Source: Candidatus Aminicenantes bacterium (GTDB taxonomy: Bacteria; Acidobacteriota; Aminicenantia; Aminicenantales; JAFGBC01). Taken from it: a DNA stretch of 64,000 nt. This document shows, piece after piece, positions 33,001-36,000 of this stretch. Position numbers: made by a program. Position 1 is the first letter of the stretch, and every line of letters begins with the position of its first letter. The stretch is taken from contig OY969696.1 of assembly GCA_963702005.1 (NCBI GenBank), positions 2,408,172-2,472,171 on the forward strand, given 5' to 3'.

Positions 33001-36000
33001 ACCGGGGCATCTTCATCCTCAGGTCGAGCCGGAAGGGAATGGCCCTGGTCAACCTCCTCAATGTTGAAGACTACCTGAAGGGAGTCGTCCCCAACGAACT
33101 TTCGCCCTCCGGGTTCAACGAAATCGAGGCCCTCAAAGCCCAGGCCGTGGCGGCCAGAACCTACGCCATCAAGAACCTCGGCGAGAACCAAGATCTGGGC
33201 TTTGACCTCTGGAATACGGCCAAATCCCAGGTCTACCGGGGTATCGACAGCGAGCTCCCCATGAGCAATAAGGCGGTGGACGAGACCAAAGGAGAGGTCG
33301 TCCTCTACCGTGGGGCGCTCATCAATGCCCTCTACACGAGCACCTGCGGCGGCCGGACCGAAAACAGCGAGAACGTCTTCGGAGGCAAGGCCGTTCCCTA
33401 CCTAAGGAGCACGGTTTGTGTCTATGAAAAGAAGCCCGAGTGGGCCGTCGAAACCGAGCGGGACGCCCCGGCCCGGGCCCAGGTCTTCGGCAACGATATA
33501 TCTCTCGAAATCGCCTCCTTGACGGCCTTCGGCGTTATCCCCGGAGGAAGCGATCCGGTCGCCTTCAGGGAGATGGTCCAGCCCGAGGAGGCCGCCGAAT
33601 GGATCCGGAAAGCCCTGGCTGTCCTCGGTCCCCAGGCCGAAACGGTCGCCTATCCGGCTCCGGCCGTAACGTTCGCTACTCTCGCTCCCTTGATTGTCCG
33701 GGTCTTCCACTGGCGGGATCGCGTCCACAACCTCCTTATCGATGAAGAGGTCGCCTACATCACGGAGAAGCAGCCGGGCCTGGCGGCCGCGGACAGGGAA
33801 AACCTGGCCTATCTCGTTTGGGCCGAGGTTTTTCCTCCCCTGGACGTCATGGGCAGTCCGGATAGGGCGCTATCCCGCGGCGAGCTCATCCATGCCCTCT
33901 ACAAGGTCCTGACGAGTTCCAAGGACTTGAGCCATTACGGGACCGTCGAAGAGATCGGCCGGGATGATATAACCGTCATGGAGGACCTTCAGAAAAGAAC
34001 CCTGCGCGTCCCGCCCGAGATCTTTCTGGTCAGGGATTATCTGGAGGGCCACTCTTTTCCGGTGAGCCTGTCGCTCTGGCCCGGGGACAGGGTCCGCTGG
34101 CTGGAGCGGGACGGGATCATGGCCCTCCTCGAGGTCGCCCCTTCGCCCGATACGAACGTCCTGGATCGGACATCGACCTTCCACCGCTGGCAGGTCCGCC
34201 GCTCCCGGGAGGAGCTCGAAAAGCTTGTCAATCAGTATTATCCCGTCGGCCGTCTGGTGGACATCTTCGACCAGAAGCGGGGCGAGTCGGGACGCGTCAC
34301 GGAACTCCTCGTCATCGGCGGCGAAGGCCAGACGATCGTGACCGGCCTCAAGGTCCGTTATGTGCTGGGGCTCAAGGACACTCTATTCGCCATCGATCGC
34401 GAGTACGACGGCGAGGGCAAGGTGGCCTTCTTCACCTTCTCCGGAAAGGGCTGGGGACACGGCGTCGGACTCTGCCAGGTCGGGGCGTTCGGGATGGCCC
34501 AACAGGGCGCCCGCTACCAGGAGATTCTCAAAAAGTACTACCAGGGCGTCAAGATCGACAAGGCCTACTGAGCCTCGCTCTTCTTTTTTCCTTTGACCCG
34601 TTCGCCGACGCTAAGCCCAGCCTTGCAGTACTCGTGGCTTCCATGGGTGTCGAGGGGTTGACACGGCCCGCAGCCGTCCCCTATAATTTTTTTGCCATGA
34701 ACAGCCGTCACTCCGGACGCCGGCCCCTCGAGTTCCGCGAGGACCAGACGCCGACGAGCGGGATTTTTTTCAAAGCACGCCGTTCCCTCTATCGGGGCCG
34801 CTCCCGCTTCCAGCGGATCGAGGTTTTCGAGAACGACGCCTTCGGCCGCGTCCTGTTCCTGGACGGCTTGGTCCAGACGACCGAAAAGGACGAATTTTTC
34901 TACCATGAGATGCTCGTCCATCCCGCCCTCCTCCGGCATCCCCGGCCGCGCCGGGTCCTGATCATCGGGGGAGGGGACGGCGGCGCCTTGCGCGAAGTCC
35001 TGCGCCATCCCGTTGAAAAGGCGACCTTAGTCGAAATCGACGGCCGTGTCATCGAAGTCTGCAAGGAACATTTCGGCTGGCTGCGGCCCGCCCTGCGCGG
35101 CGGCCGGGCCGAAATCGTCGTCGACGACGGGAACGTATTTCTCAACAGGACCCGGGACCGTTTCGACGTCATCCTGGTCGACTCCTCGGACCCGGTCGGC
35201 CCCTCGACGGTCCTCCATCAGAAGGCGTTTTATGAAAGAGTCAAGCGCCGCCTGTCGCCGGGAGGGATCGCGGCCGCCCAGGCCGGCGCCTTGCTCTACC
35301 ATCTCGATTCCCACCGCCGCAAGAACGCCTTCCTCCGGACGCTCTTCCGCCACGCCCATTTCTATATCGGTCCCGTCCCGACCTATCCCGGCGGTATGTG
35401 GTGCTATGTTTTTTGTTCGGACAGGATCCTTCCCCTCGGCCGCCTCCGGCGGGCGCCGGCGGGACTCCGCTACTACAATCCCGAGGTCCATAGGGCCGCC
35501 TTCGCCCTGCCCAACCTGCTGGCCGAAAAGCTGCGCTGAAGAGCTATTTCGGCTCCGCCCTCGCGCTTAGCCTTCGAGTCGCCTCTCGTCCCTTTTTGTG
35601 CGGAGGGCCCGCAGCATGTCCGCGGTCATCGCGGCCAGATCGTAGGACGGCGCCCAGCCCCATTCCTCCCGGGCGGCCGAATCGTCGATCGATTCGGGCC
35701 AGGAGTCGGCGATGGCCTGACGAAAGTCCGGCTTGTAGGCGCAGACGAAGCCGGGGAGGTGTTTGCGGATTTCGGCTGCCAGTTCCCCGGCCGAGAAGCT
35801 CACGGCCGAGACGTTGAAATTGGAATGATGTTTGAGACGGCCGAAATCGGCGTCCATCAAGTCCACGACGGACTTGAGGCAGTCCGGCATATACATCATG
35901 GGGAGGCGGGTCTCTTCCTTGAGAAAGCACGTGTACTTTCCGGACTTGACGGCGTCATAGAAAATGGCGACGGCGTAATCGGTCGTGCCCCCGCCGGGAA

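What the first reader, a model, noticed from the sequence alone, without database searches (positions are those of the whole stretch)
34594..34697. Repeat element donates the -35 box of a perfect-consensus promoter driving a near-leaderless speE
The 3' terminus of repeat copy 2 ends in TTGACA (34658-34663). Exactly 18 nt downstream lies a perfect TATAAT (34682-34687), and the speE ATG follows 9 nt later. This is a textbook sigma-70 promoter whose -35 hexamer is part of the repeat, which suggests that repeat insertion created or rewired speE expression. At copy 3 the equivalent 3' end reads TTGACT with no good -10.
Basis: partly seen in the sequence, partly recalled or inferred. Interest (0 to 1): 0.55.

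Follow-up and report, generated by a model that had tools for sequence, protein, structure and literature searches.

The report
Mobile repeat inserted into speE promoter
The perfect speE promoter is real and older than the repeat: a small mobile element that always inserts at the sequence TTGAC landed in the promoter's -35 box and rebuilt it, and relatives of this element sit in the -35 boxes of many other promoters in the same bacterial phylum.

Summary
The sequence observation is correct. TTGACA (34658-34663), an 18-nt spacer, TATAAT (34682-34687) and the speE ATG 9 nt later (34697) are all present. It is the only perfect match in the window, against 0 in 100 shuffles.

Four metagenome contigs about 99% identical to the window, and a relative with 85% SpeE identity, lack the repeat yet carry the same TTGACA-N18-TATAAT-N9-ATG. 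The window differs by a 65-bp insertion (60 nt plus a second TTGAC) inside the -35.

The repeat belongs to an apparently undescribed mosaic, hairpin-rich, non-coding element family of Candidatus Aminicenantes, bounded by TTGAC on both sides.
- Across 83 independent insertion sites, 93% have A or T after the 3' TTGAC.
- 65% have a -10-like hexamer 16-19 nt downstream, against 12% of other TTGAC sites.
- All five filled/empty pairs show one TTGAC that already served as a -35.

The element therefore targets TTGAC, in the manner of IS200/IS605 elements, and regenerates the -35 rather than donating it. No transposase was found.

The parts
32355..34571 (+). Upstream gene encoding a SpoIID-domain protein with a SPOR domain. 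Its stop codon lies 21 nt before the element.
   Evidence: Pfam SpoIID 1.5e-23 and SPOR 3.8e-5.
34593..34597 (+). 5' TTGAC. This is the upstream copy of the pentamer that is single in the empty allele. It is either the original target or one half of a target duplication, and it is now displaced 65 bp from the -10.
   Evidence: Empty alleles L001-L004 read CCTTTGACACGG. BLAST alignments to the window break at 34597 and 34658 with a 5-nt overlap.
34598..34657 (+). The 60-nt body of the element (copy 2), a short derivative. It keeps the left end CCGTTCGCCGACGCTAAGCCC and the right end ACTCGTGGCTTCCATGGGTGTCGAGGGG, but has lost the internal hairpin modules.
   Evidence: Alignment with 83 family members. 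Its single-strand fold is no better than shuffles, z = +0.63, against -4.4 for the 108-nt consensus.
34658..34663 (+). The -35 hexamer TTGACA. It consists of the 3' TTGAC of the element or duplication plus the flanking A.
   Evidence: It is invariant in five orthologous alleles.
34682..34687 (+). The -10 hexamer TATAAT, 18 nt after the -35.
   Evidence: It is invariant in five orthologous alleles, while 7 of 18 spacer columns and 6 of 9 columns between the -10 and the ATG vary.
34694..34697 (+). Predicted transcription start zone. G 34694 is the 7th nt after the -10, which would give a leader of 0-3 nt with no Shine-Dalgarno sequence.
   Evidence: Inferred from geometry only. The sequence TTTTTTGCC-ATG contains no Shine-Dalgarno motif. 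No transcript data were available.
34697..35539 (+). speE (spermidine synthase / polyamine aminopropyltransferase), 280 aa.
   Evidence: Pfam. P0001 is 100% identical and 280 aa.
669..780 (+). Element copy 1, 107 nt plus TTGAC, nearly the canonical two-hairpin form. No -10-like hexamer follows it.
   Evidence: nhmmer E = 3e-31 against the 108-nt family profile. Fold z = -4.2.
55587..55944 (+). Element copy 3, 353 nt plus TTGAC, a long mosaic of hairpin modules. Its 5' end reads CTGAC and overlaps the stop codon of the DnaE-like ORF. Its 3' flank is a truncated epimerase-like ORF.
36589..36617 (-). An unoccupied target of the same family. TTGACA (36617-36612), 17 nt, TATAAG (36594-36589) form the promoter of the divergent epimerase gene (35567-36544, minus strand). 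In L123 this same TTGAC carries a 103-nt element copy.
   Evidence: Filled/empty comparison. Coordinates.

Best explanation
TTGACA-N18-TATAAT-N9-ATG is an ancestral sigma-70-type promoter. It transcribes speE as a leaderless or nearly leaderless mRNA, with a leader of 0-3 nt and no Shine-Dalgarno sequence.

In the strain that gave this window, a 60-nt degenerate member of a non-coding, hairpin-rich mosaic element family inserted exactly at the TTGAC of the -35 hexamer. Every member of the family has TTGAC on both sides. That fits either of two mechanisms:
- The element inserts 3' of a TTGAC target and itself ends in TTGAC. This is IS200/IS605-like, with the flanking motif and the element-encoded end motif identical.
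- The element makes a 5-bp target duplication.

Either way, a TTGAC is restored in front of the resident A, spacer and -10. The core promoter is unchanged and the insertion is tolerated. Only the DNA upstream of -35 changes: a T-rich tract is replaced by GC-rich element sequence.

Shown: the insertion polymorphism, the pre-existing promoter, TTGAC at both ends in one fixed orientation, and the family-wide association with -35/-10 geometry.
Inferred: promoter activity, the transcription start position, the transposition chemistry, and that the insertion is neutral for expression.
For: 1. Empty alleles. L001-L004 are about 99% identical in nucleotides to the window on both sides. The alignments break at 34597 and 34658 with a 5-nt TTGAC overlap, and these alleles read CCTTTGACACGG...CCCCTATAATTTTTTTGCCATG. 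L006 (85% SpeE identity) is also empty and has the same promoter.
2. A second, independent event at the same TTGAC. L005 carries a different 124-nt mosaic copy, and its close relative L123 is empty.
3. Promoter conservation. Across five alleles, 0 of 12 hexamer columns vary, against 13 of 27 columns in the spacer and between the -10 and the ATG. Both spacings are fixed.
4. Start codon. The 280-aa homologues support this ATG, as does the GGAGG that precedes the same ATG in leadered orthologues L242-L246.
5. Family-wide pattern, from 83 unique sites in Aminicenantes genome and metagenome contigs.
- The base after the 3' TTGAC is A or T in 77 of 83 sites, against 22% at 1333 other TTGAC sites.
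- A hexamer matching TATAAT at 4 or more of 6 positions lies at spacer 16-19 in 54 of 83 sites, against 11.7% of controls.
- The positional profile shows T51% / A54% ... T45% exactly at +19 to +24, and no signal upstream of the 5' TTGAC.
6. All five filled/empty pairs have a single TTGAC followed by a -10-like hexamer at 17-18 nt.
7. Fixed orientation. The left-end core is preceded by TTGAC in 80 of 85 cases, and the right-end core is followed by TTGAC in 55 of 58. The exceptions are near-variants: mostly single-base changes, plus two left-end copies with two changes.
8. Other near-leaderless geometries. 13 of the 54 promoter-type sites have a start codon 10 nt or less after the -10. The GH97 gene in this window has TATAAT 6 nt before its ATG.
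Against: - There are no transcript data, so promoter activity and the transcription start are inferred.
- The ATG is 9 nt after the -10, longer than the 6-7 nt of a strictly leaderless arrangement, so a 2-3-nt leader is likely. Translation efficiency of such an mRNA in this phylum is unknown.
- The speE copy has lost the family's hairpins (z = +0.63). Its own history is therefore unclear: it may have inserted as a short form, or a longer copy may have suffered a later internal deletion.
- No transposase was found, neither inside long copies nor by crude motif scans of 1.88 Mb of flanking DNA.
- Part of the promoter enrichment could be survivorship rather than targeting. Among unoccupied TTGAC sites in crudely defined non-coding DNA, 37% already look promoter-like.
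Confidence: 0.85

Rival explanations
1. The element carries an outward-facing -35 and landed 18 nt upstream of a fortuitous -10. This created a hybrid promoter and rewired speE expression.
For: - The TTGAC next to the -10 is contiguous with repeat sequence.
- Hybrid promoters built from an insertion-sequence-borne -35 are a well-documented phenomenon (review PMC9330008, found).
Against: - Empty alleles in two lineages already contain the identical TTGACA-N18-TATAAT.
- In five of five filled/empty pairs the -35 is present before insertion.
Confidence: 0.03
2. The element was ancestral at this site and the repeat-free alleles arose by precise excision. The polymorphism would then reflect loss, not gain. 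The -35 still equals the original TTGAC target.
For: - IS200/IS605-type elements excise scarlessly at high frequency (PMC10055086).
- The speE copy looks old and degenerate.
- A related lineage, L005, also has an element at this site.
Against: - The L005 copy differs in composition and has its own empty relative, L123.
- The outgroup L006 is empty. Parsimony therefore favours two gains.
- A copy without intact hairpins is unlikely to excise precisely.
- In any case this model also implies a pre-existing TTGAC.
Confidence: 0.08
3. The hexamers are not a working promoter. speE would be co-transcribed with the SpoIID-like gene, and the consensus match and its conservation would reflect something else.
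For: - The genes are on the same strand and close together.
- In a more distant relative, L247, the spacer is only 11 nt and has no promoter.
- No intrinsic terminator was found between the genes.
Against: - A perfect 12/12 match occurs in 0 of 100 shuffles.
- The hexamers and both spacings are invariant while the surrounding bases vary.
- There is no Shine-Dalgarno sequence, whereas leadered orthologues have one.
- The same geometry recurs at dozens of element-tagged sites.
Confidence: 0.06
4. The family is a conventional cut-and-paste miniature inverted-repeat element (MITE), moved by a DDE transposase that makes a 5-bp duplication of a preferred TTGAC target. It would not be an IS200/IS605-type single-strand element.
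For: - TTGAC is duplicated on both sides.
- The ends share a weak inverted similarity: CCGTTCG...CGAC against the reverse complement CCCCTCGAC.
- No Y1 transposase was found.
Against: - The orientation relative to a non-palindromic target is strictly fixed in about 140 ends.
- There are no convincing terminal inverted repeats.
- There are subterminal hairpins at both ends.
- The pentanucleotide target resembles the ISDra2 target TTGAT (PMC12415229).
Confidence: 0.25

Closest known systems
Hybrid promoters formed by an outward-facing -35 at the end of an insertion sequence (for example the IS1, IS2, IS257 and ISAba1 types; review PMC9330008)
   Same: The terminus of a mobile element reads TTGAC and lies 17-18 bp from a resident -10 in front of a gene.
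   Different: Here the empty site already has the same -35 in the same place. The element regenerates the promoter rather than creating it, and no new expression signal is added.
IS200/IS605-family elements and their non-autonomous derivatives (palindrome-associated transposable elements; PMC10055086)
   Same: - A strict pentanucleotide target. The ISDra2 target is TTGAT, and TTGAC has been proposed for a related TnpB (PMC12415229).
- A single orientation relative to the target.
- No convincing terminal inverted repeats.
- Stem-loops near both ends.
- Clean presence/absence alleles compatible with scarless insertion or excision.
- Small, gene-less copies.
   Different: - The motif at the element's right end equals the target motif (both TTGAC), so an insertion looks like a 5-bp duplication.
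- The internal mosaic of hairpin modules is extensive.
- No TnpA, TnpB or omega-RNA partner was found.
- Membership is unproven.
Correia elements (Neisseria), and 'putative mobile promoters' reported in the literature
   Same: Short multi-copy intergenic repeats found just upstream of many unrelated genes and contiguous with promoter hexamers.
   Different: Correia elements have inverted-repeat ends and a TA duplication, and they can bring their own promoter elements. The present family brings nothing new. It occupies promoters that already exist.
REP/BIME repeats mobilised by RAYT transposases
   Same: GC-rich hairpin repeats in intergenic DNA, often mosaic, thought to be moved by an HUH Y1 enzyme acting in trans.
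   Different: The ends here are non-palindromic and conserved: CCGTTCGCCGACGC on the left and GTCGAGGGG on the right. No clusters in alternating orientation were seen. The position is promoter-proximal rather than at the 3' ends of genes.
Rickettsia palindromic elements (in-frame insertions in coding genes; from memory)
   Same: Three family copies (L081, L101, L167) sit inside long ORFs. Their lengths are multiples of 3, and all are in the same stop-free frame.
   Different: This is a small minority (3 of 83). The speE copy is intergenic.
Leaderless mRNAs with a -10 about 6-7 nt upstream of the start codon (common in Actinobacteria, Deinococcus-Thermus and archaea; established knowledge)
   Same: TATAAT lies a few nt before the ATG with no Shine-Dalgarno sequence. 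The same geometry occurs at other genes of this lineage.
   Different: The 9-nt distance predicts a 2-3-nt leader rather than a start exactly at the A. The start has not been mapped.

Membership tests
Sigma-70-type housekeeping promoter | -35 TTGACA and -10 TATAAT separated by 16-19 bp | tested here: met
   12/12 match with an 18-bp spacer. One match in the window, 0 in 100 shuffles.
Sigma-70-type housekeeping promoter | Hexamers and spacing conserved among orthologues while the spacer sequence drifts | tested here: met
   0 of 12 hexamer columns vary, against 13 of 27 other columns, in five alleles.
Sigma-70-type housekeeping promoter | A transcription start 6-8 nt downstream of the -10 | not testable with these tools
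   No transcript data were available.
Leaderless / near-leaderless mRNA | Start codon correctly assigned and no Shine-Dalgarno sequence upstream | tested here: met
   Homologues are 280 aa. The same ATG has GGAGG in leadered orthologues. Here the upstream sequence is TTTTTTGCC.
Leaderless / near-leaderless mRNA | 5' end of the mRNA within 0-5 nt of the start codon | tested here: inconclusive
   Inferred only, from the 9-nt distance between the -10 and the ATG.
Hybrid promoter created by an insertion sequence | The -35 is absent from the uninterrupted (empty) site and is supplied by the element | tested here: not met
   Empty alleles L001-L004, L006 and L123 carry TTGACA at the same position.
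Non-autonomous mobile element (MITE in the broad sense) | Short, non-coding, multi-copy, with precise presence/absence polymorphism at orthologous sites | tested here: met
   - 83 unique sites, sizes 48-353 nt.
- Five filled/empty pairs.
- No ORF of its own.
Classical MITE moved by a DDE transposase | Terminal inverted repeats | tested here: not met
   The ends CCGTTCGCCGAC... and ...GTCGAGGGG share only a weak CCnnTCG similarity. The orientation relative to the non-palindromic target is fixed.
IS200/IS605-derived non-autonomous element | Insertion next to a fixed 4-5-nt motif, always in one orientation | tested here: met
   TTGAC precedes the left end in 80 of 85 cases and follows the right-end core in 55 of 58. 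Each empty site has a single TTGAC.
IS200/IS605-derived non-autonomous element | Stem-loops near the left and right ends | tested here: met
   The 108-nt consensus folds into two hairpin domains as single-stranded DNA, z = -4.4. The degenerate speE copy does not (z = +0.63).
IS200/IS605-derived non-autonomous element | No target-site duplication | tested here: inconclusive
   The element ends in the same pentamer as the target. A duplication cannot be distinguished from an element-encoded end motif.
IS200/IS605-derived non-autonomous element | A cognate Y1 (HUH) TnpA, or a TnpB, carried by a longer element with the same ends | tested here: inconclusive
   None found inside long copies or by motif regex over 1.88 Mb of loci. 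Whole genomes were not searched.
REP/BIME | Short palindromic units, typically in clusters of alternating orientation, at the 3' ends of genes | tested here: not met
   Conserved non-palindromic ends. All three window copies are single and lie on the + strand. The family is promoter-proximal.
Known RNA family (Rfam) | A match at the family's gathering score | tested here: not met
   No hit in the window. Only sub-threshold hairpin matches in copy 3, and none in the speE region.

The most novel reading that the evidence does not exclude
This would be an undescribed family of non-autonomous elements in Candidatus Aminicenantes whose insertion site is the core of the sigma-70 -35 hexamer, TTGAC followed by A or T. 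Its right end also terminates in TTGAC, so each insertion rebuilds the promoter it lands in. Promoters would then be safe havens for a selfish element, and the element would serve as a natural tag for promoters in an uncultured phylum. If the chemistry is of the IS200/IS605 type, the flanking target motif and the element-encoded end motif would be identical. Cleavage-site choice would have been shaped to make insertion into promoters harmless.
Probability: 0.45. Interest if true: 0.7.

Novelty: new variant of a known kind. Interest (0 to 1): 0.5.

Why it matters
For the finding as stated, the result is a correction. A repeat that appears to carry a -35 is not evidence that it created the promoter. 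The natural repeat-free alleles show that the promoter is older.

The analysis uncovers a small mobile element with an exact TTGAC target. It sits in the -35 box of resident promoters in about two thirds of 83 sampled sites and leaves them intact. This matters for four reasons:
1. It is a clear example of target choice and end sequence combining to make insertions into regulatory DNA tolerable.
2. The 3' flanks of the element provide a ready-made catalogue of sigma-70-type promoters, including leaderless ones, for a phylum with no cultured model.
3. The filled and empty speE alleles differ by 65 bp plus scattered point differences (the flanks are about 99% identical, with 3 changes in the 18-nt spacer). 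That makes them a near-isogenic natural test of how sequence upstream of -35 affects a consensus promoter, provided the point differences are controlled for.
4. A TTGAC-specific transposition system, and any associated guide-RNA nuclease, would be of practical interest if its enzyme is found.

Tried and rejected
- **Generic repeat finder.** On the whole window it did not report the family, because the copies differ by large internal indels. A local BLAST of the spacer found the copies.
- **Known RNA genes.** Rfam at gathering threshold found nothing in the window. Relaxed searches of copy 3 and of the speE region gave only sub-threshold hairpin matches or nothing. The tRNA/tmRNA scan was empty. 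The repeat is not a known RNA.
- **Genome-collection scan with GACCCGTTCGCCGAYGCY.** About 100 of the hits were chance matches inside genes of unrelated high-GC taxa. They were discarded because they lack the hairpin modules and the right end.
- **Search for an autonomous parent.**
  - Left ends without a nearby right end all turned out to have a mutated right-end pentamer (TTGAT, TTGGC, TCGAC).
  - In L171, two separate copies flank a gene pair that includes a PIN-domain gene.
  - Regex scans for Y1-transposase and TnpB motifs over 1.88 Mb found nothing relevant. These scans are crude, so the negative result is weak.
- **Leaderless count in the window against block-shuffled sequence.** This was uninformative, because shuffled high-GC DNA still gives long ORFs. 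Only GH97 and speE are convincing cases.
- **ORF-spanning test for insertions inside coding sequence.** It gave many false positives from spurious high-GC ORFs. Only L081, L101 and L167 survived translation through the element.
- **Literature searches.** Searches for TTGAC with IS605 or with MITE, and for Aminicenantes repeats, found no description of this family.
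Full report
**Observation.** The sequence is exactly as described:
- TTGACA at 34658-34663
- an 18-nt spacer
- TATAAT at 34682-34687
- TTTTTTGCC, then ATG at 34697

The consensus scan scores it 12/12, the best site between 28 and 42 kb. The exact pattern TTGACA-N16-18-TATAAT occurs once in the 64-kb window and never in 100 dinucleotide-preserving shuffles.

The downstream ORF is speE, with Pfam Spermine_synt_N and Spermine_synth domains. The upstream gene encodes a SpoIID-domain protein with a SPOR domain. The mechanical ORF list starts speE at GTG 34634, inside the repeat, but the true start is ATG 34697. 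The 100%-identical database protein is 280 aa and homologues are 280-285 aa. In more distant orthologues the same ATG is preceded by a GGAGG ribosome-binding site. Database names for the homologues, and the record titles of the element-bearing genomes, place the organism in or near Candidatus Aminicenantes.

**The repeat.** A local BLAST of the intergenic spacer and a profile search find three copies in the window, all on the + strand:

| Copy | Coordinates |
|---|---|
| 1 | 669-780 |
| 2 | 34593-34662 |
| 3 | 55587-55944 |

They share a left end, TTGAC|CCGTTCGCCGAYGC, and a right end, GTCGAKGGG|TTGAC. Between these ends they differ in which GC-rich hairpin modules they carry. Repeat similarity stops at TTGAC, so the sixth base of the -35 hexamer (A at 34663) is flank. 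Nothing in Rfam matches, and there are no tRNA or tmRNA genes.

**The decisive comparison.** The exact SpeE protein occurs on four short metagenome contigs, L001-L004.
- They are about 99% identical to the window in nucleotides on both sides.
- Their spacer between the SpoIID-like gene and speE is 60 nt, not 125 nt.
- The BLAST alignments break at window positions 34597 and 34658 with a 5-nt overlap.
- They read ...TTCTTTTTTCCTTTGACACGGCCTGCGGTCGTCCCCTATAATTTTTTTGCCATG.

The same TTGACA-N18-TATAAT-N9-ATG therefore exists without any repeat. The window differs by a 65-bp insertion, made of 60 nt of element plus a second TTGAC, placed inside the -35 hexamer.

A relative with 85% SpeE identity (L006) is also empty and has the same promoter. 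A relative with 89% identity (L005) carries a different 124-nt mosaic copy at the same TTGAC. Its own close relative L123 is empty. There were therefore probably two independent insertions into this one -35 box.

**The promoter itself.** Five alleles were compared: window, L001, L005, L123 and L006.
- None of the 12 hexamer positions varies.
- Both spacings (18 and 9) are fixed.
- 7 of 18 spacer positions and 6 of 9 positions between the -10 and the ATG vary.

By my own hypergeometric estimate, the chance that all 13 variable columns avoid the hexamers is about 0.0025.

There is no Shine-Dalgarno sequence. With the ATG 9 nt after the -10, the likeliest start is G 34694, giving a 3-nt leader. 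This is an inference.

The arrangement is not unique here. The GH97 gene at 30155 has TATAAT 6 nt before its ATG. Of the 54 element-tagged promoter-like sites elsewhere, 13 have a start codon 10 nt or less after the -10.

More distant speE orthologues are organised differently:
- L242-L246 (83-84% identity) have TCGACA within the 3' end of the SpoIID-like gene, TATAAT just after its stop codon, and a 36-nt leader with GGAGG.
- L247 has only an 11-nt spacer.

The leaderless promoter is thus a feature of a sub-clade. It is still older than the insertion.

**The element family.** They gave 87 complete copies at 83 distinct sites. Sizes run from 48 to 353 nt, with a mode of 108 nt (22 copies, more than 90% identical to each other).

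The 108-nt consensus folds as a single strand into two hairpin-centred domains (z = -4.4). The speE copy has lost these hairpins (z = +0.63) and is a degenerate derivative.

When the left-end core is searched without the pentamer, it is preceded by TTGAC in 80 of 85 cases. The right-end core is followed by TTGAC in 55 of 58 cases. The exceptions are near-variants (mostly single-base changes, plus two left-end copies with two changes), and the opposite orientation is never seen.

The 3' flanks were not part of any search pattern. They compare with other TTGAC sites in the same contigs as follows:

| Feature | Element 3' flanks | Other TTGAC sites |
|---|---|---|
| Next base is A or T | 77/83 (93%) | 22% of 1333 |
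| Hexamer matching TATAAT at 4 or more of 6 positions, spacer 16-19 | 54/83 (65%) | 11.7% |
| TAnnnT at spacer 16-18 | 43% | 5.9% |

The position-by-position profile shows T 51%, A 54% ... T 45% exactly at +19 to +24. It shows nothing upstream of the 5' TTGAC.

Five filled/empty pairs were recovered. Each empty site has one TTGAC followed by a -10-like hexamer at 17-18 nt. One of these empty sites is in this window. It is the promoter of the divergent epimerase gene: TTGACA at 36617-36612 and TATAAG at 36594-36589, both on the minus strand. The same site is occupied in L123.

**Mechanism.** Three things are shown:
- The element is mobile or was recently so.
- It needs TTGAC.
- It sits in one orientation, and TTGAC ends up on both sides.

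This fits the IS200/IS605 scheme. Such elements insert 3' of a short flanking motif and have stem-loops near both ends. They make no target duplication and excise scarlessly (PMC10055086). ISDra2 uses TTGAT, and TTGAC has been proposed for a related TnpB (PMC12415229).

The special feature here would be that the motif encoded at the right end equals the target motif, which mimics a 5-bp duplication. A DDE-type element making a true 5-bp duplication is the main rival. I could not separate the two, because no transposase was found.

Whichever chemistry applies, a -35 box that is hit is rebuilt.

The promoter enrichment could come from target preference for TTGAC followed by A or T. It could also come from survivorship, since insertions into coding TTGAC sites are mostly lost while those in -35 boxes are harmless. 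It could be both. With a crude coding/non-coding split, 37% of unoccupied non-coding TTGAC sites look promoter-like, against 65% of occupied ones. This suggests that survivorship alone is not the whole story, but the split is rough.

**Effect on speE.** The core promoter is unchanged. What changed is the DNA upstream of -35. A T-rich tract (CTTCTTTTTTCCT, also present in L006) was moved 65 bp away and replaced by GC-rich element sequence. If that tract acts as an upstream promoter element, the insertion may lower promoter strength. This is speculation. No terminator-like structure is introduced.

**Comparison with known systems and verdict.** Its defining feature, a -35 absent from the empty site, was tested and not met.

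The element works like an IS200/IS605-derived non-autonomous element. Membership remains unproven for lack of the enzyme. It is not a REP/BIME cluster, not a classical inverted-repeat MITE, and not a known RNA. Literature searches found no description of it.

In short, the speE promoter is an ordinary though textbook-perfect leaderless-type promoter. The claimed rewiring is wrong. The repeat belongs to an apparently undescribed family of elements that home to -35 boxes and spare the promoter. I rate this a new variant of a known kind, of moderate interest.

Noticed in passing
window 30119-30157 (+): The GH97 glycoside hydrolase gene (ATG 30155) has TTCACG-N18-TATAAT ending 6 nt before its ATG. 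This is a second candidate leaderless gene in the window, with no repeat nearby.
   Followed up: partly
window 36589-36617 (-): The promoter of the divergent epimerase gene (TTGACA-17-TATAAG, 44-nt leader) is an unoccupied target of the same element family. The orthologous TTGAC carries a 103-nt copy in L123, and L005 has element-like sequence at 11981-12076.
   Followed up: yes
window 55587-56290: Copy 3 begins with CTGAC, which contains the stop codon of the DnaE-like ORF (52795-55590). It is followed by an ORF fragment (55916-56290) that matches only the last third of the NAD-dependent epimerase profile. This suggests a deletion or recombination at the element that truncated a gene.
   Followed up: partly
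window 780-1055: Downstream of copy 1 lies about 270 nt with no Pfam-supported ORF. It looks like gene debris: by eye, ankyrin-like and PD40-like peptide fragments.
   Followed up: partly
L081 2765-2907, L101 2406-2518, L167 11692-11804: Three family copies lie inside long ORFs. Their lengths are 138, 108 and 108 nt. All three are in the same stop-free frame and encode ...DPFADAKPRLSRRGxEARLRVNPEQAPAFMPGSRGVD.... These are in-frame insertions reminiscent of Rickettsia palindromic elements.
   Followed up: partly
L242-L247 (speE orthologues, 69-84% identity): The upstream region of speE is rebuilt between close lineages. L242-L246 have TATAAT right after the stop codon of the SpoIID-like gene, with the -35 (TCGACA) inside that gene, and a 36-nt leader carrying GGAGG. 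L247 has an 11-nt spacer and no promoter. Leaderless and leadered versions of the same gene therefore coexist within one clade.
   Followed up: partly
L171, minus strand, offsets 3820-4920: Two element copies, each with its own promoter-like 3' flank, bracket a roughly 0.8-kb cassette. It encodes a small protein with no Pfam hit and a PIN-domain protein, which is a toxin-antitoxin-like pair.
   Followed up: partly
Family copies in general (e.g. window 55587-55944; L054; L033): Extra palindromic modules, such as ACTCATGAACCGGAAACGGTTCATGAGT, follow the loop sequences TTTCAA and ATTCA of the two core hairpins. The 108-nt unit is itself split by an internal TTAAC that mirrors the terminal TTGAC. 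This hints at nested insertions into single-stranded loops.
   Followed up: no
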